Assembly (NCBI GenBank): GCA_022704645.1 | Contig: JAKJGA010000001.1 | Coordinates: 1 to 40,982, forward strand | Reading direction: 5' to 3' | Source of the DNA: Spirochaetota bacterium | Lineage (GTDB): Bacteria > Spirochaetota > UBA4802 > JAFGJZ01 | Length of the DNA stretch: 40,982 bases | In this document: one piece after another, positions 8,624-30,741 of the stretch | How the letters are laid out: each line of letters starts with the position of its first letter | How positions within the stretch are numbered: the first letter of the stretch is position 1 | Translations under genes and position numbers: made by a program | The notes under the pieces: model-generated | The model's input: the letters and a program-made list of their open reading frames with translations, nothing else | Database searches by the model: none | What the model was told of the DNA's origin: nothing

Positions 8624-11269
8624 TTATAGATTTTTAAGATTGTTGATGCTTTCGGTGATTTTATTTTTCAGTTCAACGAATTCATCACGTTTTGTTTTTT
8701 CTTTTGCTACGATATCTTCAGGTGCTGATGATATGAATTTATCATTTGAAAGTTTGCCTTCAACACGTGAAAGATCGGCCTCAATTTTAGATAATTCCTT
8801 GTTGAGTCTTTCAAGTTCTTTATCGACATCAATCAGTCCTTTAAGAGGAAGATAAATTTCGGCATCTTTAATAACTGCGGAGCAATCGCTTTTCTCTGGT
8901 TTATAAGATGCATCGACTTTAATGGACTCAATCTTTGCAAGTGATTTCAGCTGAGCAGATTCTTTCTCGACGATTTCTTTCACAAGCGGGCTTTCGGATT
9001 TGATTATCAGATCAGCCTTTCTATCAGGTGCGATATTCATCTCACCGCGGATATTTCTGATTTTATAAATGATTTCCTGAAAAAGCGCTGTTTCGTCGGC
9101 TTCTTTTATAAAATTAAAATTCGGATCAGTTTCCGGATATTTGGTTATTATCAGTAAATCCTGATTCTTGTCCTTAATCTTGCTCCATATTTCTTCCGTG
9201 ATAAAAGGCATGAACGGATGGAGAAGTTTAACCGATTCTTTTAGAACATGAAAAAGAACTTCTTTGGCGCAGTTTGCGGACTCTTCGCCGGAATGACCGT
9301 ATAGACGCGGTTTTGTAAGTTCAAGATACCAGTCGCAGAATTCATTCCAGAAGAATGAATAAACGGATTGTGCCGCATCATTGAATCTGTATTCGCTTAA
9401 TGCTTTAGAAATTTCATCTATTGCACAGTTGAGACGGAAAAGAATCCATTTGTCGAAACGTTCGAGTGAAGCATTATTGATTCCCTTTGTAGAAAAATTC
9501 TCGCCGAGATTCATGAGAACGAAACGTGTCGAATTCCATATTTTGTTCGAAAACGCTCTGTATCCTTCGATTCGTTTTTCCGACATGATTACATCGCGGC
9601 CCTGGGCTGCAAACATCGCAAGAGTAAATCTGAATGCGTCCGTACCGAATTTATCCATCATTATCAGCGGATCAATTACGTTTCCTCTTGATTTGCTCAT
9701 CTTGTGACCGTGTTCATCACGGACAAGAGCGTGGATATAGACATCCTTAAAAGGCACATCTCCCATGAATTTCAAGCCCATCATAATCATTCTGGCAACC
9801 CAGAAGAATATGATGTCAAAACCCGTAACCAGAACTGAAGTAGGGTAGTATTTCTTGAGCTCGGCTGTATCATCAGGCCATCCGAGAGTTGAAAACGGCC
9901 AGAGTCCGGAACTGAACCATGTATCGAGAACGTCTTCATCCTGTTTGATATTAGTTGATGAACATTTTGAGCATTTGCTTGGATCTTCCATTTCGACATT
10001 TATATGGCCGCAGTCTTCGCAGTAAAATGCCGGAATTCTGTGACCCCACCAAAGCTGACGTGAAATACACCAGTCGCGGATATTTCTCATCCATTCGAAA
10101 TAAGTTTTTTCCCAGTTTTTAGGAACGAATTTTATGCGTTCATCTTCAACAGCTTTTATTGCTTCATCTGCAAGCGGTTTGATTTTTACGAACCATTGAC
10201 TGCTTATATACGGTTCAATTATTGTCGAGCATCTGTAGCAATGTCCGACTGAATGAGGATTGTCTTCGATCTTTTCTACAAGACCGAGGTTTTCAAGGTC
10301 TTCAATTATTTTTTTGCGGGCGTCGAATCTGTCGAGACCGTTGTAAGATCCCCCGTTTTCATTTATGAAGCCCTTGGGCGTAAGAACATTGATTTCTTCA
10401 AGAGAATGACGTTTGCCCATTTCAAAATCGTTAGGATCGTGAGCAGGGGTTATTTTAACCATACCTGTTCCGAATTCCTTATCAACATAAGAATCAGCGA
10501 TAATAGGAATTTCGCGGTTGATTAACGGAAGGATCAGTTTTTTGCCGATAACGTTTTTATATCTTTCATCATCAGGATTTACTGCAACGGCTGTATCTCC
10601 AAGCATTGTTTCGGGTCTTGTTGTTGCAACTGTGATGTATCCGCTTCCGTCTGCATAGGGATATTTTAAATGATAAAGTTTTCCATTAAGGTCTTTATAT
10701 TCTGTTTCAATGTCAGAAAGGGCAGTTTCGCATCTAGGGCACCAGTTGATTATTCTTTCTCCGCGGTAGATGAGTCCTTCTTTGTACAGGGTGACAAAAA
10801 CTTTACGTACGGCTTTAGAGAGACCTTCATCGAGTGTAAATCTTTCTCTCTCCCAGTCAAGGCTCGCACCAAGCCGCTTAAGCTGGCTCTGTATCATTCC
10901 GCCGGATTCGGCTTTCCATTCCCATACTCTTTTTTCGAAAGCTTCGCGTCCCATATCGTGACGTGATTTTCCTTCTTTTGCAAGAAGTCTTTCAACGACG
11001 TTCTGAGTCGCTATACCGGCATGATCCATTCCCGGCATCCAGAGAACCGATTTGCCTTTCATGCGGTTCCATCTTGCTAAAATATCCTGAAGAGTATTAT
11101 TCAGGGCATGTCCCATATGAAGAGATCCCGTTACATTCGGCGGAGGAATGACTATGCAATATGCGTCTTTATTGTCCTTTTCATCGGCGTGGTAAAAATT
11201 TCCTTCATTCCATGCTTTAAGCCATTTTTCTTCTGTTTCTTTAGGTTCATAAGATGTCGATAACTGCAT
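8624..11269 (-). CDS. valS: Valine--tRNA ligase
   Basis: HIGH motif (PPPNVTGSLHMGHAL), KMSKS, and a C-terminal coiled coil. ATG 11269 with SD GAGGAA is preferred over the track TTG at 11293. Confidence 0.95.
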   Translation of the reverse strand: MQLSTSYEPKETEEKWLKAWNEGNFYHADEKDNKDAYCIVIPPPNVTGSLHMGHALNNTLQDILARWNRMKGKSVLWMPGMDHAGIATQNVVERLLAKEGKSRHDMGREAFEKRVWEWKAESGGMIQSQLKRLGASLDWERERFTLDEGLSKAVRKVFVTLYKEGLIYRGERIINWCPRCETALSDIETEYKDLNGKLYHLKYPYADGSGYITVATTRPETMLGDTAVAVNPDDERYKNVIGKKLILPLINREIPIIADSYVDKEFGTGMVKITPAHDPNDFEMGKRHSLEEINVLTPKGFINENGGSYNGLDRFDARKKIIEDLENLGLVEKIEDNPHSVGHCYRCSTIIEPYISSQWFVKIKPLADEAIKAVEDERIKFVPKNWEKTYFEWMRNIRDWCISRQLWWGHRIPAFYCEDCGHINVEMEDPSKCSKCSSTNIKQDEDVLDTWFSSGLWPFSTLGWPDDTAELKKYYPTSVLVTGFDIIFFWVARMIMMGLKFMGDVPFKDVYIHALVRDEHGHKMSKSRGNVIDPLIMMDKFGTDAFRFTLAMFAAQGRDVIMSEKRIEGYRAFSNKIWNSTRFVLMNLGENFSTKGINNASLERFDKWILFRLNCAIDEISKALSEYRFNDAAQSVYSFFWNEFCDWYLELTKPRLYGHSGEESANCAKEVLFHVLKESVKLLHPFMPFITEEIWSKIKDKNQDLLIITKYPETDPNFNFIKEADETALFQEIIYKIRNIRGEMNIAPDRKADLIIKSESPLVKEIVEKESAQLKSLAKIESIKVDASYKPEKSDCSAVIKDAEIYLPLKGLIDVDKELERLNKELSKIEADLSRVEGKLSNDKFISSAPEDIVAKEKTKRDEFVELKNKITESINNLKNL

Positions 11270-15667: not shown

Positions 15668-16705
15668 ATGATGAATTTATTGAATTTAAGATTTTTAATT
15701 GTCTGTTCTCTTATGCCGGCAATACTATTTCTGTCATGTAAAAAGGATAATCAATCCAAACAAGAGAATATCCCGGTTGTTGAAAAGAGTATTTTGAAGA
15801 TTTCTCCTGCACCTGAAGGTTCTCCTGTTTCCAAATATGGAAAACTTCAGATTAAAGGAGTCAATCTTTGTGATGCGAACGGAAATATCGTTCAATTAAA
15901 AGGAATGAGTCTATATTGGAGTCAATGGTCAAACGGATTTTGGAATAAGGATGTTGTTAATACTCTTGCGGATGATTGGAAATGCACGGTAATACGTGCC
16001 GCAATGGGAGTTGTCAAGGGCGGTTATCTTGAAAATTCCGGAGAAATTGATAAGCTTAAAATAGTTCTGGATGCGGCAATTGAAAAAGGCATTTATGTAA
16101 TCATTGACTGGCATGATCATGATGCGATAAGCCATACGGAAGAAGCTAAGAAATTTTTCGCTGAAATGGCTGCCGGATACGGGCAGTATCCTAATATTAT
16201 TTTTGAAATATTTAATGAACCTATAAATGATCAATGGCTGGATGTAAGAAAATATTCCGAATCTGTCATTGAAACGATACGCGCCAACGGATCAGACAAT
16301 GTCATAATTGTCGGAACTACATCATGGTCGCAGGATGTGGATATTGCTGCGGAGTTTCCAGTTAAAAACGGAAAGAATGTTGCATATGCCCTTCATTTCT
16401 ATGCGGCGACTCACAAAAAAACATTTAGAGACAGAGCTGAAGCTGCTATCTCAAAAGGTCTTCCAATTTTTGTTTCTGAATGGGGTACTTGTGAAAATAA
16501 CGGCGACGGTTTTGTTGACATTGAAGAAAGTCTGATATGGCTTGATTTTATGGATAAACACAAGCTTAGCTGGTGCAACTGGTCATTGTTTAATAAAATG
16601 GAATCAGCATCCGCTTTGAAGGCTAATGCAAAGCCTTCAGGAAAGTGGAATAATTCGCTTCTTACTGAATCCGGAAGATTTGTAAAAAAGAAAATATCTG
16701 AATAA
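15668..16705 (+). CDS. GH5 endo-beta-1,4-glucanase (cellulase family) lipoprotein
   Basis: Signal peptide with spirochaete-type lipobox (ILFLSC). Has DWHD, acid/base Glu in IFEIFNEP, nucleophile Glu in VSEWGT, and HFYA. Confidence 0.88.
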   Translation: MMNLLNLRFLIVCSLMPAILFLSCKKDNQSKQENIPVVEKSILKISPAPEGSPVSKYGKLQIKGVNLCDANGNIVQLKGMSLYWSQWSNGFWNKDVVNTLADDWKCTVIRAAMGVVKGGYLENSGEIDKLKIVLDAAIEKGIYVIIDWHDHDAISHTEEAKKFFAEMAAGYGQYPNIIFEIFNEPINDQWLDVRKYSESVIETIRANGSDNVIIVGTTSWSQDVDIAAEFPVKNGKNVAYALHFYAATHKKTFRDRAEAAISKGLPIFVSEWGTCENNGDGFVDIEESLIWLDFMDKHKLSWCNWSLFNKMESASALKANAKPSGKWNNSLLTESGRFVKKKISE

Positions 16706-16737
16706 AAAAACGGGCATTGTTAAGCCCGTTTTTTTTA
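16704..16737. terminator. Bidirectional rho-independent terminator
   Basis: AACGGGC (16709-16715) pairs with GCCCGTT (16724-16730) across an 8-nt loop. An A-run lies upstream and a T-run downstream, between convergent genes. Confidence 0.8.
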
Positions 16738-16783: not shown

Positions 16784-18319
16784 TTATTTTATCATGGAAT
16801 AAGTTACCTTGAATTCACCTTCTGTGTTTGCAGGTACTCTGAGAATTCGTTTTTTAGAATCAAAATCAGTATAATCTTTTCCATTGAGTTCGACTTTTGA
16901 AATGATTAGATTCTGAATTTCCTCAACAGGGTTCATCGGAAATTCCCGATTCTTAGAAGATTTTTCGATGTTGTAGAAAAGAGATACATCCTTTTTATGA
17001 AAATATAGATTTCCATACAGATAAAGATAATAGGCTGTTTCAAGTGAATGATATGCGCTTTTCCAGTAAGAGCCCTTATATTCATCTTCGTCTGTTTTAA
17101 GTCTTTTCCCGTCAGGTTTAACTTCATCAAAGATGTCCCCATATTCCTTGTCGATTGTATACCGCTCGAAAAATCCGCATGCCTCATCAGCCATTTTGAG
17201 ATACAAGGTGTTTCCCGTTACATAATAGTTTATTAGACCGCTGGTGATTGCCTGCTCCAGAGTCCAATAGTTTTTATTGTCATTGGTAATTACTCCTTCG
17301 AAGCTGTCTGCGAAATTGTATGGTCCGCCGTTTGAGTTGTCCCATGCTTTTTCGTTGATGTTGTGAAGTATTTTTTCTGCTGTTTCTGAATATTCCTTTT
17401 TTGGGCTAATCAGATTCGCGCGCTGAAGGCACCATGCAGTTTTAAGCATATGACCGATAAAAATGAATGATTCGTCACGGGGTCTCCATTCGGAGTCATA
17501 TTGCTCTTCATAGCCGATTTTTCTTGATTTTGAGGTCGGATACATGTGAGTTATAACATTGTCCGCAAGAGAAATAAGTCTTTCCTTGTATTTTTCATTA
17601 TTAGTTAGAAGGTAAAGAGAAAGGCCGTGTGTCGTTACGCAGTCCATGGTCGGTGTAAATCCTTTTCCTCTCGGATTTCTCCAGTCATAATCGGCTGATT
17701 CGAAATAACCTTCGTATCCTTTTCTGTTGTCATACAGTTTTTCGTCCAAAAGCGCGCGCGATTTAATCAGAAAATCAAAATGTTTTTCATTCCGAGTGGC
17801 GTCGACAAGTGCGGAATAACCCAGGAGAGCATAGTGCTGCATGAAAGACCATTTTTCTCTTTGTCTGTTGTTTTGATTCAGAAGAATATCATAAGTGAAA
17901 TCAATATTTCTCCCGGTAGCATCAACGGTAGTATAAAAGCCTCCGTGTTCTTTGTCGTAACACTTTGTTCTGATGAAATCTTCGGCATAGTTTGCGTACT
18001 TTAAGAATTTTTTATCACCAGTAAGCATATACGCGCGGGAGAAGGCATACATTATTCTGCTTTGAGACAATGTTGACTTATAATTATTTCCGAGGACGTC
18101 TCCATTGCGTGCAACCATTGTGAAGAAGCCGCCGTTCTTTTCGTCATATGTTTTAGTCCAGAATTCTGCACTGGTACGTGCGAAATCTACAGCTTTATCC
18201 GGGTTTTTCAGCATTAAGGAATACATATCTTTGATTTTGTATTCTGCCGGATATTTTTTGCAGGCCGTAATAATGCATCCAAGGGCTAAAATTAGCAGTG
18301 CAATTTTTCTTGTATTCAT
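16784..18319 (-). CDS. AGE-family (N-acylglucosamine/cellobiose 2-epimerase-like, alpha/alpha-6 barrel) lipoprotein with an extra C-terminal beta-rich tail
   Basis: SD AAGGAGA lies just upstream (5-nt spacer) of ATG 18319; an ATG at 18340 forms an ATGA overlap with the upstream stop and is the alternative start. Lipobox IITAC. AGE-like repeats: DEKNGGFFTMVARNGD, KSTLSQSRIMYAFSRAYMLTGD, KEHGGFYTTVDATG, HMLKTAWCL. Confidence 0.65.
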   Translation of the reverse strand: MNTRKIALLILALGCIITACKKYPAEYKIKDMYSLMLKNPDKAVDFARTSAEFWTKTYDEKNGGFFTMVARNGDVLGNNYKSTLSQSRIMYAFSRAYMLTGDKKFLKYANYAEDFIRTKCYDKEHGGFYTTVDATGRNIDFTYDILLNQNNRQREKWSFMQHYALLGYSALVDATRNEKHFDFLIKSRALLDEKLYDNRKGYEGYFESADYDWRNPRGKGFTPTMDCVTTHGLSLYLLTNNEKYKERLISLADNVITHMYPTSKSRKIGYEEQYDSEWRPRDESFIFIGHMLKTAWCLQRANLISPKKEYSETAEKILHNINEKAWDNSNGGPYNFADSFEGVITNDNKNYWTLEQAITSGLINYYVTGNTLYLKMADEACGFFERYTIDKEYGDIFDEVKPDGKRLKTDEDEYKGSYWKSAYHSLETAYYLYLYGNLYFHKKDVSLFYNIEKSSKNREFPMNPVEEIQNLIISKVELNGKDYTDFDSKKRILRVPANTEGEFKVTYSMIK

Positions 18320-18336
18320 ATTATCTCCTTTGTTTG

Positions 18337-20385
18337 TCATTTGCGTATTCCCTCTGTTAGTCCTTCCGTAAACTGTCTGTGAAATTTCAGAAATAGAAGT
18401 AATGGTATTATTATAGAAATAAAGCCTGCCGCGAGTACTGCTCCTGTGTCGTTTATCAGCAGAATTCTTACAGGAAGAGTCATAAGCTTTTCATCGCGCA
18501 TAATTATTACCGGATTAAGGAAATCATTCCAGACAATTCGGAACTGAATTATTGCAAGCGCCGCAAGCGCTGGTCTTGCGAGAGGAAGAATGATGTGCCA
18601 CCAAATTCTTAAATGTCCGGCTCCGTCCATACGGGCAGCTTCAATTACTGCTAACGGAATTCTCATGAAATACTGCCGTAAAAGAAATACGCCGAATCCG
18701 CTGACAGCACCTGGAAGAATCAGTCCGAACCAGCTGTTGAGCAGATGCAGATTCTTCGCGACTTTGTACATCGGTATCATAAGTGCGTTAGCCGGGATCA
18801 TCATGGTTGAAAGGGCAAGAATCAGGAAAAATTTCTTATGTTTGAACTCCATAAAGACAAGTGCGTATGCGTATAGAGATACTACAATTGCTGTTAAAAA
18901 AATTGTTCCTGAAGATACTATTATCGAATTAAACAGGGCTCGGCCGACATCAAAATGCCAGAATGCCGCGAGATAAGAATCCCTCGTATAGCTTTCAATT
19001 GATTTCCATATAGGCTGTTGAAAAATCGCAGGAGGCGATTGTATTACTTCGAGAGGCGGACGAAGGGATGCGTCAAGCAGCCATAAAAGCGGAAAAATAA
19101 ACAGAAGAGCGAGAATGCAAAGTAAAAATGCACTGAGAAGCTTCCCCGGCCTTATTTTTCTTTTAGCTCTAAATACTTTTTCCCGGACTCTTTGAACTCT
19201 TTCGATGAAAGGTTTTTCGATGAATTGAAAAGATAGTGCTGCCGCTCCGTAAGAAATTACTATCATCAATAATGAAGCACCCGCCCATAGTCTCCAGTCT
19301 TTGATTGCCATGTAGTTCATATACTCGGGAAGAATATAGAAAGAAATCAATGCTATTATTACATAGTGCCAGATATAAAGGCCGAAAGAAATTTTAGCTG
19401 TAAATCTCATAAAGCGCGAATCAAATAATTTTCCGGTAAATTTTGAATTTACAAGCGAAACGGCGAGTATTGAAATCAATGCTGTCAGATATGGAAAGTA
19501 GTAAGGCTGCTTTTGAATGCTGTGAGTGAATTCTTCTTCGGTACGTACATAGCATAGGAGTCCTATTATGGCCGCGGAGCTAACAATTGAAGCAATGTCG
19601 AAAATGTTTTTATCAGCGATTCTGTCTCTGAGAGTTTTATTCTTTATAAAATAGGCGCATATTCCGCCGGCTAGTATTCCGAATGTGAAATGACCGAAAA
19701 AGCCTATTGGGTTGTAATTCGGCATCCACCATTTTGATCCGCCTGTGACTCCGAATTCCCATCCTCGTTTGACATTATCAGGAGTAAGATACATGTGTAT
19801 AAGCTGATTTATACCGATTATCAGGAGTAGGGTGAATACCCAATAAATGATTCCTTTTTTAAATGATCTTTTTTCTCCAGTAAAGCGGAATAGGCCGAAC
19901 ATGAAAACCGGCATTAGTAAATATGAAAAAACTTCGAAACTGATAGACCACAAAGGTGAATTTACAAACGACGGAAAAAGTGTTGTGTAATGAAATCCTG
20001 CCGTGAAAGTTAATCCTGTTATAAGTCTTCTGGCAAAATAATCCATATCAGGAATAAAAAGCAGGGCAAGAATAGTACTTACTGCGAATGAAGCGTAATA
20101 ACCCGGTACTATGCGTGCCGCTCTGCGCTTTGCGTAGTTTGAAATATCCGGAAAATCAAGGTTTGAAATATAATTTTTCCAGAATGGATAAGAAAGGAGA
20201 AATCCGCTGAGTACGAAAAAAAAGCTTACACCGGTGTTTCCCATCAGAAAGAAGAGCTGTATATGCTGAAGAATGAAATGCTGCGAGTATATGTCCAGTC
20301 TCTGCGCGACATGATGAAATATTACTAATAGACATGCTGCAGCGCGCAGTCCGTCAAGTCCCGGGAATCTGTTTTCAATCTTCAT
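18337..20385 (-). CDS. Fusion protein: acyltransferase-3 (OafA/NolL-like) domain plus MalG-type carbohydrate ABC permease domain
   Basis: AT3 motifs at the N-terminus: LDGLRAAACLLVIFHHV, GVSFFFVLSGFLL, RRAARIVPGYY, WSISFEVFSYLLMP, FIEKPF. A basic linker RVREKVFRAKRKIRPGK (nt ~19140-19200) follows. Then a complete permease: FIFPLLWLLDASL and the EAA loop VIEAARMDGAGHLRIWWHIILPLARPAL. There is no in-frame stop or plausible internal start at the junction. Confidence 0.8.
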   Translation of the reverse strand: MKIENRFPGLDGLRAAACLLVIFHHVAQRLDIYSQHFILQHIQLFFLMGNTGVSFFFVLSGFLLSYPFWKNYISNLDFPDISNYAKRRAARIVPGYYASFAVSTILALLFIPDMDYFARRLITGLTFTAGFHYTTLFPSFVNSPLWSISFEVFSYLLMPVFMFGLFRFTGEKRSFKKGIIYWVFTLLLIIGINQLIHMYLTPDNVKRGWEFGVTGGSKWWMPNYNPIGFFGHFTFGILAGGICAYFIKNKTLRDRIADKNIFDIASIVSSAAIIGLLCYVRTEEEFTHSIQKQPYYFPYLTALISILAVSLVNSKFTGKLFDSRFMRFTAKISFGLYIWHYVIIALISFYILPEYMNYMAIKDWRLWAGASLLMIVISYGAAALSFQFIEKPFIERVQRVREKVFRAKRKIRPGKLLSAFLLCILALLFIFPLLWLLDASLRPPLEVIQSPPAIFQQPIWKSIESYTRDSYLAAFWHFDVGRALFNSIIVSSGTIFLTAIVVSLYAYALVFMEFKHKKFFLILALSTMMIPANALMIPMYKVAKNLHLLNSWFGLILPGAVSGFGVFLLRQYFMRIPLAVIEAARMDGAGHLRIWWHIILPLARPALAALAIIQFRIVWNDFLNPVIIMRDEKLMTLPVRILLINDTGAVLAAGFISIIIPLLLFLKFHRQFTEGLTEGIRK

Positions 20386-21274
20386 GTTTTTCACCAAGTC
20401 CGAGAAATTTAAGCTGAAGCAGACTCACTGCCAGAATCAGAAAAAAAGCAATCCATCCTGCGGCGCTTGCAGCCCCGATTTCAAGATCCCATTGAAATGC
20501 TCTCAGGTAGATATAGAGAATAATCCCGGTGACATTTTCATAAATATTATATTGAAAAAGACCGAGAATGAGGTCAAAAACCAGAAGCGATGATACGGCA
20601 GACGTTATCGTCATGAATATCAAGGCGGGTTTCATGAGCGGCAAAGTGATGTTTTTTAGTATGCTGAGTCTTCCGGCTCCGTCAATTCTGGCTGCTTCAT
20701 AAGGCGACTGATTAAGTGACCTGAGGTTTGCTGAGAAATATATAATCTGAAATCCGATACATTGCCAGAAAGAAACAAATACAAGCAGCGGAAAAGCAAG
20801 AGTTTTATCATCAAGCCAGTTCATATTCGGATTTCCTCCGAAGAAGCCGATGATAATATTTGCGATACATTGTTCTCCGGTGAATAACAGCCTGAAAAGA
20901 ATTCCTGCTACAAGAGTATTGATGAGAGAAGGTATGAAAAAGGCTGCTTTGAGTAAACTCTGCGTTCTTTTATACGGCAGGCTTTCTATCCATAAAGAAA
21001 TCAAAAACGCAGCCGGAATCTGAATTGCAACCGAAACAGCTGCGAATTTAAATGAAACATAAACAGAATTCCAGAAATAAGTGTCCTTGAGAATATTCTT
21101 GAAATTTTGAAATCCGATGTTTTTTCCAGGATTAATTCCCTGGGCATCGGTAAGACTGGTTAAAAAACCGATTCCGAATACTATAATGGTGAATATGAAC
21201 ATCAGAATCAGAAAGGGCGCCATAAAGCGTAGAGCCTGCCGTTCATTTTTATCTGTAAGCTTTATCATCTGCAA
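20375..21274 (-). CDS. MalF-type carbohydrate ABC transporter permease
   Basis: Six predicted TMs and the EAA loop YEAARIDGAGRLSILKNITLPLMKPAL. Overlaps the downstream fusion gene by 11 nt. Confidence 0.85.
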   Translation of the reverse strand: MQMIKLTDKNERQALRFMAPFLILMFIFTIIVFGIGFLTSLTDAQGINPGKNIGFQNFKNILKDTYFWNSVYVSFKFAAVSVAIQIPAAFLISLWIESLPYKRTQSLLKAAFFIPSLINTLVAGILFRLLFTGEQCIANIIIGFFGGNPNMNWLDDKTLAFPLLVFVSFWQCIGFQIIYFSANLRSLNQSPYEAARIDGAGRLSILKNITLPLMKPALIFMTITSAVSSLLVFDLILGLFQYNIYENVTGIILYIYLRAFQWDLEIGAASAAGWIAFFLILAVSLLQLKFLGLGEKHED

Positions 21275-21517: not shown

Positions 21518-22762
21518 ATGTTTGAACAATTTGTGTTAATTAATGGAATAATTACTCAATTATGTCTATTAGCAGCGGCCCAGGGTTTTTTTTTGTTTTT
21601 CTTGCTCTTCCGCAGATCGGGATCAGACAGAGTTTTTTCTTTTGCAATTTTATTTGTATCTTATGAGCTCGCACTGCATTATGTTTATAAGGCCCATATG
21701 TGGTCTGAGTATCTCCCTTTATTTTTAGTAAAAGATACATTGGGTTTTTTATACGGATTTCTTATTCTGCTATATGTCCGCTTTCTTTTTGGGAAAAATG
21801 TCCGGTTAAGCTTTTTTGATTTTATTCATTTCGTTCCTGCGATAGTTTTTTTCGGAATCGGCTTATTTTTTAATACTCACTATCTTGGATACGGAACTTA
21901 TTCTGTTATTGATTTTGATGAAAGCGGAATCACTCGGTTCAGGTTTTATTCGCAGAATATAAAGTATGTAATTATATTCAGTTATCTTGTTTTTTCGCTG
22001 AAGGATGTCTTTAGATACCGAAACAGGCAAAAAATATTTTTTCCAGGGATAAAAAGAAGTTCGACTACATGGCTTCTTGTTTTTTTGTTTGCAGTTTTTA
22101 TTCTTTGGCTTCTTCCATTCCTTTCTCTTAATTTCTATTATATGGAATCATTTGCTCATTTCTGGACTTTTTTCCATATAATAAAAATTCCTTTTTTACC
22201 TGAGATTTTATCACTAGTTAATTCATTTTTTACAGTAATTTCTATCTATTCGGCCGGATACTATATTCTAGGTAAAGTTTCGCCTGATACTGATGCGAAT
22301 AATCTAATCAATTCGAGCTGTGATAGTGAGACAGTTGGTCATTCAAAGTACAGAAAAAACCTGTTATCAGAGACTATTAAAGCTGATTATCTAAAGCGTA
22401 TAATAAACTGTATGGATGTCGAAAAACCTTATCTCGATCCGGACTTTTCGATAAAAGATTTTTCCAATAAAATAAACGTATCAACGCATAATATATCTCA
22501 AATAATCAATGATACTTTCGGTAAAAATTTCTTTAATTTTGTTAATGATTACAGGATAGACTTTGCTGCCGCTATTATTTCAAATACCTCCAGAGATGTA
22601 AATATTCTTCACGCAAGTCTTGATTCGGGTTTTAATTCCAAATCTGTGTTTAATACAGTGTTTAAAAAGAAGTTCGGAATGACTCCGTCTCATTATAGAA
22701 ATCATTTTATGGAAAAAGCAGTACAGCCATCCGTAAAAGAGATTGAAAATGAAGTTGATTAA
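21518..22762 (+). CDS. Membrane-embedded AraC/XylS-family transcriptional regulator
   Basis: The N-terminal ~250 aa contain multiple TM helices. The C-terminal HTH_18-type domain has KDFSNKINVSTHNISQIINDTFGKNF and FNSKSVFNTVFKKKFGMTPSHYR. Confidence 0.8.
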   Translation: MFEQFVLINGIITQLCLLAAAQGFFLFFLLFRRSGSDRVFSFAILFVSYELALHYVYKAHMWSEYLPLFLVKDTLGFLYGFLILLYVRFLFGKNVRLSFFDFIHFVPAIVFFGIGLFFNTHYLGYGTYSVIDFDESGITRFRFYSQNIKYVIIFSYLVFSLKDVFRYRNRQKIFFPGIKRSSTTWLLVFLFAVFILWLLPFLSLNFYYMESFAHFWTFFHIIKIPFLPEILSLVNSFFTVISIYSAGYYILGKVSPDTDANNLINSSCDSETVGHSKYRKNLLSETIKADYLKRIINCMDVEKPYLDPDFSIKDFSNKINVSTHNISQIINDTFGKNFFNFVNDYRIDFAAAIISNTSRDVNILHASLDSGFNSKSVFNTVFKKKFGMTPSHYRNHFMEKAVQPSVKEIENEVD

Positions 22763-23241: not shown

Positions 23242-23273
23242 GAGAGGAAGCCCATGCTTCCTCTCATTTTTTT
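23242..23273 (+). terminator. Rho-independent terminator
   Basis: GAGAGGAAGC (23242-23251) pairs with GCTTCCTCTC (23256-23265) across loop CCAT, then ATTTTTTT. The right arm overlaps the stop codon of the convergent ABC ATPase gene. Confidence 0.85.
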
Positions 23274-24220
23274 ATGCATCTTGCCGAATGATTTTTCTTT
23301 TTTTCTTCAAGTGAAATTTTGTTTTCAAGACATTCCGGACTGCGTTCCCTGCATCTGTCATAAAAACGGCAGCCCTTTGTTTCAAAGTCTATAGGCGGAA
23401 CATTGCCCACTATCGGGTTTAAGTGTTTTTCTTTGCAGTTTTGTGCAGGAATTGACTCTATGAGAGCCTGAGTATAAGGATGCATCGGATCCGAGAAAAT
23501 TGTTTCCGAGGAACCAATTTCAACTATTTCGCCGGCATATAAAACGGCTGTGCGTTCACAAAGATTTGCCGTAATTCCGAGATCATGAGAAATAAAAATT
23601 AATGAAAGTCCTTCATTTTCAACCTTGCTTTTTAAGATTGATAATATTTGCGACTGAACAGTTACATCCAGTGCGGTGGTTGGTTCATCCGCGATCATAA
23701 GAGAAGAGCCTGAAGCAAGTGCTGAAGCAATCATTATTCGCTGCTGCATGCCGCCGGAAAGTTCGTGCGGATAGCATGAGTATATTTTTTCGGGATCAGG
23801 AATTTTCATGCTGTCAATAAGTTCAATAGCTTTGTTCCGTGCTTCTTTTTTAGAAATATTCTGATGGGCTAGAATAGTCTCAGATATTTGATACCCGGCT
23901 GTATAGCATGGATCAAGAGCTGTTGAAGGCTCCTGAAAGATCATTGAGATTTCTTTACCTCTTTTCAGGCGCATTTCCGCTTCGCTGCACTGCAGAAGAT
24001 CCTCTTCCTTAAAGTATACTGCTCCGGATATTATTTCACCGGGACTCTGCAAAAGCCGCATAATGGAATAAGCTGTAACGGTTTTTCCGCATCCGCTTTC
24101 TCCAATGAGGCCTAATGCGTGACCCTTTTCAAGAGTAAAAGAAATATCTCTGGCTGCCGGATACAGCTTATCTTTGATTCTGAAACCTGCATAAAGTGAT
24201 TTGACTTCAAGAAGACTCAT
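23264..24220 (-). CDS. OppD/DppD-type oligopeptide ABC transporter ATP-binding protein (no permease or binding-protein gene nearby)
   Basis: Walker A GESGCGKT, Q-loop IFQEP, signature LSGGMQQR, Walker B LMIADEPTTALD, H-loop ISHDL. The Opp-type C-terminal extension carries a Cys cluster (GCRFYDRCRERSPEC). Confidence 0.88.
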   Translation of the reverse strand: MSLLEVKSLYAGFRIKDKLYPAARDISFTLEKGHALGLIGESGCGKTVTAYSIMRLLQSPGEIISGAVYFKEEDLLQCSEAEMRLKRGKEISMIFQEPSTALDPCYTAGYQISETILAHQNISKKEARNKAIELIDSMKIPDPEKIYSCYPHELSGGMQQRIMIASALASGSSLMIADEPTTALDVTVQSQILSILKSKVENEGLSLIFISHDLGITANLCERTAVLYAGEIVEIGSSETIFSDPMHPYTQALIESIPAQNCKEKHLNPIVGNVPPIDFETKGCRFYDRCRERSPECLENKISLEEKKKNHSARCIKK

Positions 24221-25002
24221 TTAATTGTTTTTCCTTCAAATGATAGTTTGCCGTTGACTATTTGAATTATAAAGTAATCATATTTTTTTCGTTTGTCTTC
24301 AATGGACGGAAGCGGGAGATTGATATGCCGGATTCCGTCTTTGTTAATGTCATATTCGAAATTTGATTCTGATGAAATAACCGCTAAAACATTATGCTGC
24401 AAGAGAATATTGTGTGTTTCCGAAGGATTGGTGATTGTCTGTGTTTTAATTTTCTGCGGAGCGAAAAGCGGTATTTTTGAAAATATGATTATTCTAGAAT
24501 CTTTATATTTTTGAATATCTGATTTAAGCCAGATTAACTGGTCTTCTGTGATAAATCTTTCCGAATTTGTTGCGTTTAACGCAATGAAATGAAGGGTTCC
24601 GTAATTAAATGAAAAATATTCTCCATGATTTTCTCTTTTATTAAAAAGATCAAAACTGTCATCGAATTTATCGTGTTCTGCCGGGATAAAATATGCAATG
24701 GATCTGAAACGCGAGAATTCTTTTTTTGCAGAATCAAGCTGTTTTTCGACATCATTCTTTATTATACCGCTTTTTGATGAACCGCCCTGAATCAAATTCC
24801 CAAGATGAATCAGAAATGTCGGGTTATCTTTATTGATTGAATCAATAAGTTTTGCAAGTTCGGCCGGATTTGTCTTGAAAGCTGATTCGGGCAGAGTATT
24901 TGCGACAAGGGCAAAATTTACATCATTTGTTCTTTTTTCAATTCCGGCGCAGGAAAATGCTGATAATAAAGTTGCTAATAGAATTATTTTTTTAGTAAAC
25001 AT
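24217..25002 (-). CDS. Lipoprotein with a calcineurin-like phosphoesterase fold and degenerate metal-binding motifs
   Basis: Lipobox SAFSC. Motif spacing is MPE-like but the ligands are altered: FALVANT (DxH lost), LIHLGNLIQGG (GD to GN), PAEHD (GNHD to AEHD), VISSESN (GHxH lost). ATGA overlap with the ATPase gene. Confidence 0.5.
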   Translation of the reverse strand: MFTKKIILLATLLSAFSCAGIEKRTNDVNFALVANTLPESAFKTNPAELAKLIDSINKDNPTFLIHLGNLIQGGSSKSGIIKNDVEKQLDSAKKEFSRFRSIAYFIPAEHDKFDDSFDLFNKRENHGEYFSFNYGTLHFIALNATNSERFITEDQLIWLKSDIQKYKDSRIIIFSKIPLFAPQKIKTQTITNPSETHNILLQHNVLAVISSESNFEYDINKDGIRHINLPLPSIEDKRKKYDYFIIQIVNGKLSFEGKTIK

Positions 25003-28904: not shown

Positions 28905-29951
28905 CTATTTTCTGATATTTATATTTTGCGTCGGATATGCAAACTCTATTTTTTTGGATTTGAAATATTTCATAATTTCTAAATTTATTTGTTCATTTAT
29001 CTCCATAAAGTATGCGTAATCCGGAGAAGAAATAAAATATTCTGTTTCAAAGATAATTGAATAATCTGATAATTCTTTTAAATTTGAACGTGAGTATTCT
29101 GTGTCTTTATGAGACTCGATTATTTTTTTAATTTCTATCGGAATTTTTTCAAGCTTGCTGATTTCAGTATCGTAACAGACTGAATGTGAGAGGAGTACTC
29201 TTCTTTTTTTCATTTTTGTATAATTTCTTACGGTCTTATTTGTCAGCTGATTATTTGAGAGAATAATTTCTTCACCGTTTAAGCTCAATATTCTTGTGCT
29301 TCTTATACCTATTTTAATTATTGTACCTGCGACGTCATCGAATCTTATAAAATCATTTTGCACGAAAGGTTTATCAACATATATAGTAAAGGAAGAAAAT
29401 AAATCAGAAAGAATATTTTGAAAAGCAAATGCAAAAGCAATACTGGTTATTCCAAGACTCGTAACAAGTGTTGAAACTTTGAAACCAAGATTTGAAAGAA
29501 TTATTATTAATCCTGCTGAATAAATTGCTGTCTTGGAAAGAACAATAATAATATTAAAAAAAGTTTCTGAGGATTTATATTTTTTCCCTTGGTGTATTTT
29601 GGAAAAAATAAGATTTAGGCTTTTTCCTGCTATTGAGGCTAATTCCAGAAAAACTGAAGCAATAACAAAAGTATTTATAATCATTTCTTCGGTTTTTGAT
29701 AAAGTAATCAAATTAGAGGCAATCTCAAATGATATCGCAAAAATAAGCATGTAGTGTGTTTCTGCAATAAATGAAGTGATTCGTCTTATTTTTTTATTGT
29801 TTTTAGATGCTTTTCTAAGACGCATCCTCAAAGTGCTTCTAATTGCCGAAAGAATAATGAAGATGAGAGTAGATGCTGTAAAAAAGACTACTGCTTTTGA
29901 AAAATTATTTTCTTCAATCAGAAAGTTTTTAATTGTTTCAAATGTTTCCAA
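28905..29951 (-). CDS. MscS-family mechanosensitive channel
   Basis: TM3 plus beta-domain signature: LGITSIAFAFAFQNILSDLFSSFTIYVDKPFVQNDFIRFDDVAGTIIKIGIRSTRILSLNGEEIILSNNQL (cf. E. coli MscS). TTG start with SD AGGAGA, which overlaps the upstream TAG stop. Confidence 0.85.
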   Translation of the reverse strand: METFETIKNFLIEENNFSKAVVFFTASTLIFIILSAIRSTLRMRLRKASKNNKKIRRITSFIAETHYMLIFAISFEIASNLITLSKTEEMIINTFVIASVFLELASIAGKSLNLIFSKIHQGKKYKSSETFFNIIIVLSKTAIYSAGLIIILSNLGFKVSTLVTSLGITSIAFAFAFQNILSDLFSSFTIYVDKPFVQNDFIRFDDVAGTIIKIGIRSTRILSLNGEEIILSNNQLTNKTVRNYTKMKKRRVLLSHSVCYDTEISKLEKIPIEIKKIIESHKDTEYSRSNLKELSDYSIIFETEYFISSPDYAYFMEINEQINLEIMKYFKSKKIEFAYPTQNINIRK

Positions 29952-29961
29952 AAACGTTCTC

Positions 29962-30741
29962 CTATGCAGGGAAAATATAATTTAGTGAAGAGCCGGAATT
30001 ACGGACTTTTTTAAAATCAATTTTATATAATTTGGAAGCTATGTCACTTTTCAGAAATTTATCGGATGATCCTGAAAAAAAAATGCTGAAATCCTTCATT
30101 GCTGTAATAATATCAGAAAATCTTATTGCGGTATTTATGTCGTGAACAGAAGCAATAACAGTTTTTCCTCTGTCGGCTTCGGCTCTTAAAATTGAATATA
30201 TGTTATATGCATGACTGATATCAAGATGAGATACCGGTTCATCCATAATTATAATTTCAGAATTTTTTGCGATACACCCGGCAAGCAGTGTAAGCTGAAG
30301 CTCTCCCGCTGATAAATGATTTAAAAGTTTTTTGGATAATTTTTCAATTCGGCATTTTTTGAGAGCGATATCTTTATATTCATAATCATCATTTGAAAAT
30401 GCAAAGCCTTTTTTTAATGGAAAGCGGTTAAGTAAAACGAACTCATCAACTGTTATCGGTTTTGCCGAAAAATCAGATGAAAATACCGAAGAAATAATTG
30501 ATGATTTTTCCTTTACTTCAAGCGTATCGATGCAAGTATTTCCTATAAGGACTTCACCCTTTAGAGGTCTTTGAATTCCGCATATAATTTTAAGCAATGT
30601 TGTTTTCCCTGATCCGTTGGGACCGATCAGGGATGTAAGTTTGCCTTTTGGGAAAACTGCTGACAATGATTCAAAAACATTTTTGTCTGAATATGAAAAA
30701 AAAATATTTTTTAGAACTATGTCATTTTTATTATTTAGCAT
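29962..30741 (-). CDS. FepC/BtuD-like ABC ATPase without a cognate permease and lacking the Q-loop glutamine
   Basis: Walker A GPNGSGKT, signature variant LSAGELQ, Walker B IIIMDEPVSHLD, H-loop SVHD. No Gln occurs between GIQRPL and the signature motif, where the Q-loop should be. Confidence 0.8.
   Translation of the reverse strand: MLNNKNDIVLKNIFFSYSDKNVFESLSAVFPKGKLTSLIGPNGSGKTTLLKIICGIQRPLKGEVLIGNTCIDTLEVKEKSSIISSVFSSDFSAKPITVDEFVLLNRFPLKKGFAFSNDDYEYKDIALKKCRIEKLSKKLLNHLSAGELQLTLLAGCIAKNSEIIIMDEPVSHLDISHAYNIYSILRAEADRGKTVIASVHDINTAIRFSDIITAMKDFSIFFSGSSDKFLKSDIASKLYKIDFKKVRNSGSSLNYIFPA

What the first reader, a model, noticed from the sequence alone, without database searches (positions are those of the whole stretch)
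18337..20385. In-frame fusion of a complete acyltransferase-3 domain to a MalG-type sugar ABC permease
One uninterrupted ORF encodes an intact AT3 O-acyltransferase module. Its motifs are the R/H motif LDGLRAAACLLVIFHHV, then GVSFFFVLSGFLL, RRAARIVPGYY, WSISFEVFSYLLMP and FIEKPF.

A basic linker follows, then a full six-helix permease with the EAA loop EAARMDGAGHLRIWWHIILPLARPAL. The junction (nt ~19140-19200, RVQRVREKVFRAKRKIRPGKLLSAF) has no stop and no ATG/GTG/TTG that could restart a separate permease.

A 10-TM AT3 domain would end in the cytoplasm. That is where a MalG N-terminus belongs, so the fusion is topologically plausible.

AT3 domains are known fused to SGNH domains (OafA-type). 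I do not know of an AT3-ABC permease fusion. It would physically couple oligosaccharide import with acyl transfer, or use the AT3 channel for something else.
Basis: seen in the sequence. Interest (0 to 1): 0.65.

Follow-up and report, generated by a model that had tools for sequence, protein, structure and literature searches.

The report
Acyltransferase fused to sugar ABC permease
A real, conserved and transcribed gene in uncultured spirochaetes joins a membrane acyltransferase (AT3) to one half of a sugar ABC importer; it always sits beside the other permease half and an exported epimerase-like lipoprotein, never a binding-protein gene, which suggests an unstudied way of chemically tagging sugars at the point of uptake.

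Summary
Window 18337..20397 (-) is one 686-aa ORF; the likely ATG at 20385 gives 682 aa. It encodes a complete 10-helix AT3 domain (Pfam 6.8e-32), a basic linker, and a complete 6-helix CUT1 MalG/UgpE/SugB-type permease with its EAA loop.

It is not an assembly artefact:
- Four independent metagenome assemblies are identical across the junction.
- Fifteen homologues (49-94% identity) keep the frame through a variable linker.
- dN/dS against a close relative is about 0.06.
- RNA contigs cover the junction.

Topology is coherent: 16 helices, N-in/C-in, with the EAA loop cytoplasmic. The universal AT3 motifs are invariant.

New findings:
- The gene always lies in a three-gene cassette of malF-like, AT3::malG and an exported cellobiose-2-epimerase-fold lipoprotein. 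This holds in about 10 unrelated genomic contexts, none with a binding-protein or ATPase gene.
- The same AT3 subfamily has fused to CUT1 permeases in at least three separate clades and five geometries.

Best reading (about 0.45): acyl transfer physically coupled to uptake of beta-1,4 oligosaccharides. The function is untested, and I found no paper describing the architecture.

The parts
20375..21274 (-). MalF/UgpA-type CUT1 ABC permease (299 aa), first gene of the cassette. Its end overlaps the start of the fusion gene.
   Evidence: Pfam BPD_transp_1 at residues 90-286. NCBIfam UgpA 2.9e-22 and GlcT 5e-19, both below the equivalog cutoffs. It is conserved immediately upstream of every AT3::malG gene examined.
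18337..20397 (-). AT3::MalG fusion gene. It is 686 aa from the TTG at 20397; the ATG at 20385 (682 aa) is the more likely start.
19210..20364 (-). AT3 (acyltransferase-3) domain, residues 12-396, with 10 transmembrane helices. Its motifs are R18-X10-H29, F60-F61-V-L-S64-G65, R92-A-A-R95 and E394.
   Evidence: Pfam PF01757 6.8e-32. Ten hydrophobic segments. AF2 pLDDT is about 80 over this half. The motif residues are invariant or nearly invariant in 16 sequences and match the functional motifs defined in PMC7448272.
19126..19209 (-). Cytoplasmic basic linker, residues 397-424 (IERVQRVREKVFRAKRKIRPGKLLSAF).
   Evidence: There are 11 K/R in residues 391-424. No column is invariant and the length varies among homologues, yet the frame is always kept. 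There is no start-type codon and no stop.
18340..19125 (-). MalG/UgpE/SugB-type CUT1 permease domain, residues 425-686, with 6 transmembrane helices.
   Evidence: NCBIfam UgpE 1.6e-35, covering model positions 12-278 of 281. PDB phmmer: SugB 1.2e-25, AlgM2 3.4e-23, MalG 2e-6. The top Foldseek hit is SugB of LpqY-SugABC.
18565..18642 (-). EAA loop (EAARMDGAGHLRIWWHIILPLARPAL, residues 586-611), the docking site for an ABC ATPase.
   Evidence: E586, A588, G592, P605, R608 and P609 are invariant. The loop lies in the cytoplasmic loop 574-600 between TM4 and TM5.
16784..18340 (-). Exported AGE-superfamily lipoprotein (cellobiose-2-epimerase fold) with an extra C-terminal beta-sandwich. It is the last gene of the cassette and has a 4-nt ATGA overlap with the fusion gene.
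   Evidence: Pfam GlcNAc_2-epim 1.6e-29. AF2 pLDDT 94.1. Foldseek matches RmCE 3wkf with E 7.5e-22 and TMt 0.83. It has an N-terminal signal with lipobox ITAC. H297, H431, E434 and R95 are conserved family-wide, and the catalytic-site Glu of epimerases is replaced by K300. It is conserved downstream of every AT3::malG gene.
16704..16735 (.). Bidirectional terminator-like hairpin between the cassette and the convergent GH5 gene.
   Evidence: A 12-bp stem flanked by an A-run and a T-run. This is a consensus match only.
15668..16705 (+). Neighbouring GH5 endo-beta-1,4-glucanase lipoprotein. It is convergent and not part of the conserved cassette.
   Evidence: Pfam Cellulase 3.7e-60. PDB GH5 endoglucanases 3e-92. 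Lipobox FLSC.
21518..22762 (+). Divergently transcribed AraC-type regulator with a long hydrophobic N-terminal region, a candidate local regulator.
   Evidence: Pfam HTH_18/HTH_AraC at residues 317-395. It is not conserved beside the cassette in other genomes.

Best explanation
The gene encodes a single 16-helix inner-membrane protein. A catalytically competent AT3 transmembrane acyltransferase (10 helices, N-in/C-in) is joined by a basic cytoplasmic linker to the MalG-type half (6 helices) of a CUT1-family type-I ABC importer.

It pairs with the MalF-type permease encoded just upstream. It must dock, through the two EAA loops, an ATPase encoded elsewhere.

The third, translationally coupled gene encodes an exported lipoprotein with a cellobiose/mannobiose-2-epimerase fold.

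Proposed mechanism:
1. Beta-1,4-linked gluco- or manno-oligosaccharides are released outside the cell, for example by the neighbouring GH5 endoglucanase lipoprotein.
2. The AGE-fold lipoprotein binds them in the periplasm and possibly epimerises them at the reducing end.
3. The AT3 domain passes an acyl (most likely acetyl) group from cytoplasmic acyl-CoA through its pore and O-acylates the sugar at the periplasmic mouth of the MalF/MalG translocation pathway.
4. The ABC half moves the sugar in.

Shown: the architecture, topology, motif conservation, purifying selection, cassette conservation, repeated independent fusions and transcription.

Inferred: the substrate, the acyl donor, the order of steps, and that the two activities act on the same molecule.
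For: - The fusion is real. The junction is identical in 4 independent assemblies, and 15 fused homologues at 49-94% identity were found. Against L008 there are 62 synonymous and 11 non-synonymous codon differences. RNA-derived contigs cover all three genes, and one spans 18957-19233 across the linker.
- Both halves are complete and look functional. Pfam and NCBIfam cover them fully. The AT3 half has 66 invariant columns and the MalG half 67, while the linker has none.
- The AT3 motifs R-X10-H, FFxxSG, RxxR and the Glu after TM10 are all kept. The EAA loop is kept in both permeases.
- Topology is 10+6 helices with the positive-inside rule satisfied throughout. Published AT3 topology is N-in/C-in (PMC9833829).
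- There is a physical or functional link between this AT3 clade and CUT1 permeases. Five fusion geometries exist: AT3-G, F-G-AT3, F-AT3-G, F-AT3 and G-AT3. They fall in three separately supported clades of the AT3 tree, which needs at least 3 gains.
- The cassette malF / AT3::malG / AGE-lipoprotein is present in every AT3-G locus with enough flank, about 10 different genomic contexts.
- Substrate hints come from the neighbours: a GH5 endoglucanase here, a GH26 fragment in L001, and GH9-CBM3 about 8 kb away in L093. The AGE partner's closest structures bind cellobiose or mannobiose. Its wider exported family carries CBM2/CBM60 or T9SS domains and sits in a GH10/GH43/GH3 cluster in Anaeromyxobacter.
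- There is a precedent for a catabolic transmembrane acetyltransferase: HGSNAT of the same TmAT superfamily (PMC12423673).
Against: - No biochemical datum exists for any member.
- No binding-protein or MalK/MsmX-type ATPase gene lies within 8-10 kb in any of the loci. Transport competence is therefore unproven, and the whole genome could not be searched because the genome search was shut.
- Six or seven of the roughly 10 contexts have no glycoside hydrolase nearby, so the link to beta-1,4 glycans is weak.
- There is no obvious benefit in acylating a sugar that is about to be catabolised.
- Close stand-alone AT3 relatives in Bacillota (about 50% identity) are not linked to permeases.
- The AF2 model of the permease half is poor (pLDDT about 50), and no inter-domain geometry could be evaluated.
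Confidence: 0.45

Rival explanations
1. Co-expression fusion without mechanistic coupling. The AT3 domain acylates some envelope or periplasmic glycan of the cell itself, as OpgC, Oac and WecH do. The MalF/MalG pair is an ordinary sugar importer. The fusion only ensures co-localisation or stoichiometry.
For: All characterised bacterial AT3 proteins modify the cell's own glycans or secondary metabolites (PMC9558356). Most contexts lack CAZymes. Stand-alone sister AT3s are not permease-linked.
Against: At least three independent fusions, in five geometries, join the same AT3 subfamily to the same permease family. That is hard to explain without a shared substrate or complex. The cassette contains no glycan-synthesis genes.
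Confidence: 0.2
2. A binding-protein-independent or re-wired ABC system. The AGE-fold lipoprotein, or the AT3 periplasmic face, replaces the classical substrate-binding protein as the receptor that delivers substrate and triggers the ATPase.
For: The AGE-lipoprotein gene occupies the operon slot in about 10 of 10 contexts and is translationally coupled (ATGA overlap). No PF01547/PF13416 binding-protein gene lies nearby. In L001 the AGE orthologue has lost both catalytic-type His residues yet is retained, which fits a binding role.
Against: H297 and H431 are conserved in 116 and 120 of 121 family members, which argues for an enzyme. The F-G-AT3 fusions of Deinococcales have no AGE gene but lie next to a classical LacI-SBP-permease operon. 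No natural type-I importer without a binding protein is known (own knowledge). An orphan binding-protein gene elsewhere in the genome was not excluded.
Confidence: 0.15
3. The machine exports or builds rather than imports. The permease pair and AT3 act on a periplasmic or extracellular glycan made by the cell, for example an acylated glucan, with the AGE-fold protein as a polymer-modifying epimerase.
For: The cassette is autonomous and often sits among signalling or motility genes rather than catabolic ones. There are weak PF06662 (glucuronyl C5-epimerase C-terminus) hits on the AGE protein.
Against: The permease halves are canonical type-I importer domains: full-length matches to UgpE, SugB and MalG with EAA loops. 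No member of that fold is known to export (own knowledge). There is no glycosyltransferase or synthase in any cassette context.
Confidence: 0.08
4. Reverse or salvage chemistry. The system takes up naturally O-acetylated hemicellulose oligosaccharides, and the AT3 domain moves their acetyl groups inward, onto CoA or water, instead of outward.
For: Plant xylans and mannans are O-acetylated, and their acetylation uses TmAT-type proteins (PMC6110886 listed; own knowledge). The exported AGE family sits in a xylan-degrading cluster with a predicted esterase (PF10503 Esterase_PHB) in L090.
Against: Transfer from an O-ester to a thioester is thermodynamically uphill (own knowledge). No AT3 is known to run in reverse. 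The neighbour here is a cellulase, not a xylanase or mannanase.
Confidence: 0.05
5. Artefact or pseudogene: a frameshift, chimeric assembly or decaying gene merely mimics a fusion.
For: Two relatives (L010, L076) carry frameshifts, and one Deinococcales copy (L041) has an in-frame TGA.
Against: The junction is identical in four independent assemblies. Fifteen intact fused homologues exist. dN/dS is about 0.06. All catalytic and EAA motifs are intact. RNA contigs span the junction.
Confidence: 0.01

Closest known systems
CUT1-family type-I ABC sugar importers (MalFGK2-MBP, UgpAEC-B, LpqY-SugABC, AlgM1M2SS-AlgQ)
   Same: The C-terminal 262 residues are a full-length MalG/UgpE/SugB-type permease with six helices and an EAA loop. 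A MalF/UgpA-type partner gene lies immediately upstream.
   Different: A 10-helix AT3 acyltransferase is fused to the N-terminus. No binding-protein or ATPase gene lies in the operon or within 8-10 kb in any relative; an exported AGE-fold lipoprotein occupies that place instead.
AT3 acyltransferases: stand-alone (Oac, WecH, OpgC, IcaC) and AT3-SGNH (OafA, OafB, OatA, PglI)
   Same: It has the same Pfam family, a 10-TMH core, and the R/K-X10-H, FFxISG-like and RxxR motifs plus a Glu after TMH10.
   Different: There is no 11th helix and no SGNH domain. The C-terminal partner is a membrane transporter domain that begins in the cytoplasm. The likely acceptor is a soluble oligosaccharide rather than an envelope polymer. 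The AT3 reviews read here list only AT3-only, AT3-SGNH, AT3-alanine-racemase (VanT) and eukaryotic NRF-AT3 architectures.
MalF-MalG-AT3 triple fusions of Deinococcales/Meiothermus (e.g. P0064, L004/L047), and F-AT3-G, F-AT3 and G-AT3 fusions (P0247, P0270, P0271, P0254)
   Same: They join the same AT3 subfamily to the same CUT1 permease family. None has been characterised.
   Different: Domain order and number differ, and they form separate clades in the AT3 tree. They have no AGE-lipoprotein neighbour; the Deinococcales genes sit beside a LacI-SBP-permease-GH81/GH1/GH43 operon.
HGSNAT (lysosomal heparan-alpha-glucosaminide N-acetyltransferase, TmAT superfamily)
   Same: It is a transmembrane acetyl-CoA-dependent acetyltransferase acting on a glycan fragment on the far side of the membrane as part of a degradative pathway (PMC12423673). 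This is a functional analogy only.
   Different: It is a eukaryotic lysosomal N-acetyltransferase from a different Pfam family, and it is not fused to a transporter. Homology to this protein was not tested here.
Cellobiose/mannobiose 2-epimerases (RmCE 3WKF, CsCE 4Z4J), compared with the cassette partner
   Same: It has the (alpha/alpha)6 barrel (Foldseek TMt 0.83-0.86), and both catalytic-type histidines are conserved.
   Different: It is exported as a lipoprotein rather than cytoplasmic. Lys replaces the active-site Glu of the GHxxE motif. It has an extra C-terminal beta-sandwich of about 65 residues.

Membership tests
Acyltransferase-3 (AT3; PF01757 / IPR002656) | Significant match to the family profile above the curated threshold | tested here: met
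   111.2 bits against a cutoff of 31; residues 12-384 cover model positions 2-323 of 326.
Acyltransferase-3 (AT3; PF01757 / IPR002656) | Core of 10 transmembrane helices with N- and C-termini cytoplasmic | tested here: met
   Ten hydrophobic segments between residues 11 and 390, with K/R-rich loops alternating consistently. AF2 helices agree. The topology is a prediction only.
Acyltransferase-3 (AT3; PF01757 / IPR002656) | R/K-X10-H in TMH1, FFxISG-type motif in TMH2, and RxxR after TMH2 (PMC7448272) | tested here: met
   R18...H29, F60-F61-V-L-S64-G65 and R92-A-A-R95. All are invariant or at least 90% conserved in 16 fused homologues.
Acyltransferase-3 (AT3; PF01757 / IPR002656) | Acyl-CoA-dependent acyl transfer to a carbohydrate acceptor | not testable with these tools
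   This needs biochemistry.
AT3-SGNH two-domain O-acyltransferases (OafA/OatA type) | An 11th TMH plus an extracytoplasmic SGNH domain C-terminal to AT3 | tested here: not met
   There is no SGNH hit. The sequence after TM10 is a cytoplasmic basic linker followed by a BPD_transp_1 permease.
CUT1 type-I ABC importer permease (MalG/UgpE; PF00528) | Profile match, six TMH, and an EAA-x3-G-x9-I-x-LP loop on the cytoplasmic side | tested here: met
   PF00528 at 52.5 bits against a cutoff of 26.4. UgpE model covered at positions 12-278 of 281. Six segments lie between residues 425 and 670, and the EAA motif is at 586-611.
CUT1 type-I ABC importer permease (MalG/UgpE; PF00528) | Heterodimer partner permease (MalF/UgpA type) encoded alongside | tested here: met
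   The gene at 20375..21274 (-) overlaps the fusion gene's start and is conserved in all loci.
CUT1 type-I ABC importer permease (MalG/UgpE; PF00528) | Cognate extracytoplasmic substrate-binding protein (PF01547/PF13416) in the operon | tested here: not met
   None is found in the 41-kb window or within 8-10 kb of the cassette in L001, L006, L007, L092, L093 and L094. The rest of the genome was not searchable.
CUT1 type-I ABC importer permease (MalG/UgpE; PF00528) | MalK/MsmX-type ATPase available | tested here: inconclusive
   None is adjacent in any locus. Shared, unlinked MsmX-type ATPases are common in CUT1 systems (own knowledge). The genome search tools were shut.
AGE superfamily / cellobiose 2-epimerase (cassette partner, 16784..18340) | (alpha/alpha)6 barrel with two catalytic histidines | tested here: met
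   AF2 pLDDT 94. Foldseek 3wkf with E 7.5e-22 and TMt 0.83. H297 is conserved in 116 of 121 and H431 in 120 of 121 members.
AGE superfamily / cellobiose 2-epimerase (cassette partner, 16784..18340) | GHxxE active-site Glu, cytoplasmic location, and equivalog-level score | tested here: not met
   Lys300 replaces the Glu in 117 of 121 members. It has a signal peptide and lipobox. NCBIfam EpiA scores 83 bits against a cutoff of 800.

The most novel reading that the evidence does not exclude
The cassette is a new kind of ABC importer that carries out group translocation without a classical binding protein.

On this reading the exported epimerase-fold lipoprotein captures a beta-1,4 disaccharide or oligosaccharide, perhaps epimerises it, and docks on MalF/MalG in place of a binding protein. 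The covalently attached AT3 O-acylates the sugar with cytoplasmic acyl-CoA as it enters the translocation pathway. Uptake then becomes chemically irreversible, and the sugar is 'privatised' against competitors.

The repeated, independent AT3-permease fusions in Spirochaetota, Deinococcales and other lineages would be convergent solutions to the same coupling.
Probability: 0.2. Interest if true: 0.9.

Novelty: new variant of a known kind. Interest (0 to 1): 0.68.

Why it matters
AT3 proteins are known only as modifiers of a cell's own surface glycans or antibiotics. Type-I ABC importers are thought to move substrates unchanged and to depend on a dedicated binding protein.

A conserved covalent union of the two has arisen several times. 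Here it comes packaged with an exported epimerase-fold lipoprotein instead of a binding protein. This points to an unexplored mode of sugar acquisition, chemical modification at the point of uptake, in polysaccharide-degrading bacteria of digesters, sludge and wetlands.

It also gives AT3 research a naturally tethered, soluble-substrate system, and possibly a defined acceptor. That could help answer how stand-alone AT3 domains hand the acyl group to their acceptor.

Tried and rejected
1. Artefact or frameshift at the junction: rejected.
2. 'Relatives with separate adjacent AT3 and malG genes': the two candidates are disrupted fused genes. L010 has an 11-bp duplication (CAGGTTATAAG) and L076 a frameshift in an A8 run.
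3. Functional clues from neighbours of the stand-alone AT3 relatives (Bacillota, Devosia): clustering of flanking ORFs gave only lineage synteny (guaA, IMPDH, der in Devosia) and a sporadic SDR. Permease genes lay within 8 kb in only 4 of about 70 loci, which is uninformative.
4. AF2 of the whole fusion with the 16-sequence alignment: the AT3 half is acceptable, but the permease half is poor (pLDDT about 50). Foldseek scores are weak and no inter-domain conclusion is possible. No AT3 structure was returned from the PDB.
5. Literature: four full-text searches and three AT3/TmAT papers gave no mention of an AT3-ABC permease fusion.
6. Whole-genome search for an orphan binding protein or MsmX ATPase: not possible, because the genome search and the fetch from genomes were shut.
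Full report
**Observation.** The minus strand of the window carries one uninterrupted ORF at 18337..20397, 686 aa from a TTG. The closest homologue starts at the internal ATG (MKIEN, window 20385). That start gives the same 11-nt overlap with the upstream gene that is seen in L001, so 682 aa is the likelier product.

Pfam finds Acyl_transf_3 over residues 12-384 (6.8e-32, 111 bits against a cutoff of 31) and BPD_transp_1 over residues 504-668 (6.8e-14). NCBIfam aligns residues 422-682 with positions 12-278 of the 281-position UgpE model. phmmer against the PDB gives SugB 1.2e-25, AlgM2 3.4e-23 and MalG 2e-6. The C-terminal part is therefore a complete CUT1 MalG-type permease, not a fragment.

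**Is it real?**
- The 801-nt stretch around the junction is held at 0.99-1.00 word share by at least 20 public runs: activated sludge, wastewater, anaerobic digester, biogas and soil, from many studies.
- Contigs assembled independently from four of these runs match 18900-19500 with 0 differences and 0 gaps.
- A search of 5.8 billion proteins returned 15 full-length fused homologues (680-705 aa, 49-94% identity), all with both Pfam domains.
- In their alignment the AT3 part has 66 invariant columns, the permease part 67 and the linker (residues 397-424) none. The linker varies in length but never breaks the frame.
- Against the 98%-identical copy L008 there are 62 synonymous and 11 non-synonymous codon differences, roughly dN/dS 0.06.
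- Low-depth RNA-derived contigs from activated-sludge metatranscriptomes cover all three cassette genes. A 277-nt contig (18957-19233) from X25, a wastewater library filed as 'METAGENOMIC RNA-Seq cDNA' in which DNA carry-over cannot be excluded, crosses the linker without a difference.
- Two relatives that look split are broken fused genes. L010 has an 11-bp tandem duplication in the linker, and L076 has a frameshift in an A8 run of a long-read MAG.

**Topology and catalytic competence.** Hydropathy gives ten segments in residues 11-390 and six in residues 425-670. All K/R-rich loops fall on one side: the N-terminus, 73-98, 173-182, 252-267, 317-339, the linker 391-424 with 11 K/R, 516-524, the EAA loop 574-600, and the C-terminus. 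This matches the experimentally supported N-in/C-in topology of 10-TMH AT3 proteins (PMC9833829). It also matches the known N-in/C-in, six-helix MalG (own knowledge from the MalFGK2 structures).

The motifs shown to matter in OafA, Oac and OafB are the R/K-X10-H of TMH1, FFxISG of TMH2, RxxR, and a Glu after TMH10 (PMC7448272). Here they are R18...H29, F60-F61-V-L-S64-G65, R92-A-A-R95 and E394. All are invariant or nearly so in the 16 sequences. The EAA motif is intact in both permeases. The AF2 model (16-sequence alignment) is good for the AT3 half (pLDDT about 80) and poor for the permease half (about 50). Its best PDB match is SugB of LpqY-SugABC, and no AT3 structure was returned.

**Surroundings: a conserved three-gene cassette.** Upstream, overlapping the start, lies a MalF/UgpA-type permease at 20375..21274. 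Downstream, with an ATGA overlap, lies a 518-aa protein at 16784..18340. It has a lipoprotein signal (lipobox ITAC) and a GlcNAc-2-epimerase/AGE domain.

The order malF-like, then AT3::malG, then AGE-lipoprotein recurs in every AT3-G locus with enough flank:
- the window and its near-identical copies L095 and L098 (L008 ends within the fusion gene);
- L001/L009 and L006 (Spirochaetota MAGs);
- L007 (a 'Deltaproteobacteria' MAG);
- L010 (Brevinematales);
- L076, L092/L096, L093, L094 and L097.

The flanks differ completely between these loci. None contains a CUT1 binding-protein gene (PF01547/PF13416) or a MalK-type ATPase within 8-10 kb. The 41-kb window has none either. A promoter-like site lies upstream of malF-like and a bidirectional terminator-like hairpin lies after the AGE gene, consistent with one operon; these are consensus matches only.

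**The partner protein.** With a 59-sequence alignment, AF2 gives pLDDT 94.1. Foldseek's best hits are cellobiose 2-epimerases (3wkf E 7.5e-22, TMt 0.83), glucose 2-epimerase and mannose isomerase. Residues 452-516 form an extra beta-sandwich. Across 121 homologues the two catalytic-type histidines (H297, H431), E434 and R95 are conserved, but the Glu of the epimerase GHxxE motif is Lys (K300).

Of the first 46 family sequences whose N-termini were printed, most that are not obviously truncated begin with a signal peptide or lipobox-like segment. Many more distant members carry T9SS sorting domains, CBM2 or CBM60. An Anaeromyxobacter member sits among GH10, GH43-CBM6, a predicted esterase and GH3-CBM6 genes. 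It therefore belongs to an exported, probably glycan-active clade of the AGE superfamily. In L001 both histidines are replaced (N and N) although the gene is kept.

**Substrate hints.** The convergent neighbour in the window is a lipoprotein GH5 endo-beta-1,4-glucanase, 3e-92 to solved endoglucanases. L001 has a GH26 fragment after the cassette, and L093 has a GH9-CBM3 gene 8 kb away. The other contexts have no CAZymes.

**The fusion is one of several.** A profile search of 1.84 billion representatives found only one 50%-identity cluster with the AT3-G order. The same AT3 subfamily also occurs in four other orders:
- F-G-AT3, about 1000 aa, in Deinococcales and Meiothermus;
- F-AT3-G (P0247, L088);
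- F-AT3 (P0270, P0271);
- G-AT3 (P0254, followed by a LacI gene).

In a maximum-likelihood tree of 131 AT3 domains these fall in three separately supported clades. The AT3-G clade has SH-aLRT 99 and is sister, at 98, to stand-alone Bacillota AT3s. The F-G-AT3 clade has 95, and the F-AT3/F-AT3-G/G-AT3 clade has 99. At least three origins are therefore required. This is classical 'Rosetta-stone' evidence that this AT3 subfamily works together with CUT1 permeases. Stand-alone relatives (about 50% identity in Paenibacillus and other Bacillota, about 35% in Devosia and Rhizobium) are not permease-linked.

**Mechanism.** Shown: a single 16-helix protein with an intact AT3 and an intact MalG-type domain, a MalF-type partner, and an exported epimerase-fold lipoprotein, all conserved, under purifying selection and transcribed.

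Inferred, best reading (about 0.45): AT3 conveys an acyl group from cytoplasmic acyl-CoA to an oligosaccharide at the periplasmic mouth of the MalF/MalG pathway. The AGE-fold lipoprotein binds or epimerises that oligosaccharide, and an unlinked ATPase drives import. The logic resembles HGSNAT, a TmAT-superfamily enzyme that acetylates a glycan fragment across a membrane as part of degradation (PMC12423673).

Rivals:
- fusion for co-expression only, with AT3 acting on an envelope glycan (0.2);
- the AGE lipoprotein or AT3 replacing the binding protein (0.15; this can combine with the best reading);
- an export or biosynthetic role (0.08);
- inward acetyl salvage from acetylated hemicellulose (0.05);
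- artefact (0.01).

**Comparison with what is known, and novelty.** The protein passes the tests for membership of the AT3 family and of the CUT1 permease family. It fails the AT3-SGNH definition. As an ABC system it lacks the operon-encoded binding protein.

The AT3 reviews and the TmAT paper list AT3-only, AT3-SGNH, AT3-alanine racemase and NRF-AT3 architectures, and no ABC permease fusion. Full-text searches found no description. JGI's automatic annotation does give both COG names to these proteins, so the architecture is present in databases but appears unstudied.

Earlier notes of this scan had flagged the Deinococcales triple fusion and a Lachnospiraceae ectodomain-AT3-MalG fusion, and the binding-protein-less state of this locus. 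I re-derived the first and the third independently here.

I class this as a new variant of known kinds. If the coupling is mechanistic it would be a categorically new reading: group translocation by an ABC importer.

**Verdict.** The function is untested. Interest 0.68.

Noticed in passing
window 21518-22762 (+): The divergently transcribed AraC-family regulator has about 300 N-terminal residues that are strongly hydrophobic and look multi-helix, ahead of the HTH_18 domain at 317-395. A membrane-embedded AraC-type sensor next to the cassette is unusual. It is not conserved beside the cassette elsewhere.
   Followed up: partly
window 15668-16705 (+) and 16704-16735: A GH5 endo-beta-1,4-glucanase with a lipoprotein signal (FLSC) converges on the cassette. 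The two share a perfect A-run/stem/T-run hairpin that could terminate both transcripts.
   Followed up: partly
L010 about 9260-9300; L076 about 8540-8560; L041 about 8335: Three relatives carry lesions in the fusion genes: an 11-bp tandem duplication in the linker (Brevinematales MAG), a frameshift in an A8 run inside AT3 (long-read Spirochaetota MAG), and an in-frame TGA at a conserved Trp of the EAA loop (Deinococcales MAG). These may be sequencing errors or recent inactivation.
   Followed up: partly
L001 12078-13568: In this Spirochaetota MAG the cassette's AGE-fold lipoprotein has Asn in place of both conserved catalytic-type histidines (GH to NN, YH to SN), yet it is otherwise well conserved. 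This may be a non-catalytic binding variant.
   Followed up: no
L092 6910-8668: A second pair of CUT1-type permease genes (295 and 283 aa) lies directly upstream of the cassette, again without a binding-protein or ATPase gene.
   Followed up: no
P0121-P0240 (family of window 16784-18340): This is a sizeable exported clade of the AGE superfamily. Lys replaces the epimerase active-site Glu, and members often carry T9SS sorting domains, CBM2/CBM60 or a beta-lactamase-like domain. In Anaeromyxobacter (L090) it is embedded in a GH10/GH43/esterase/GH3 cluster. It appears to be uncharacterised.
   Followed up: partly
P0246, P0256, P0269: There are other uncharacterised fusions in the same AT3 subfamily: AT3 + DUF2141 (585 aa), AT3 + an unassigned C-terminal region of about 330 aa (728 aa), and an unassigned N-terminal extension of about 125 aa + AT3 (530 aa).
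   Followed up: no
L088 4914-7940 and 8159-10700: The single-gene MalF-AT3-MalG fusion (1008 aa) is followed immediately by an IS21-type transposase/IstB pair. Any downstream partner gene may have been displaced.
   Followed up: no
window 23264-25002 (-), 28905-30741 (-): Two orphan ABC ATPase genes lie in the window: an OppD/F-type coupled to a phosphoesterase-fold protein, and one next to an MscS channel. Neither is a MalK/MsmX type (no such Pfam pattern), so neither is an obvious partner for the cassette.
   Followed up: no
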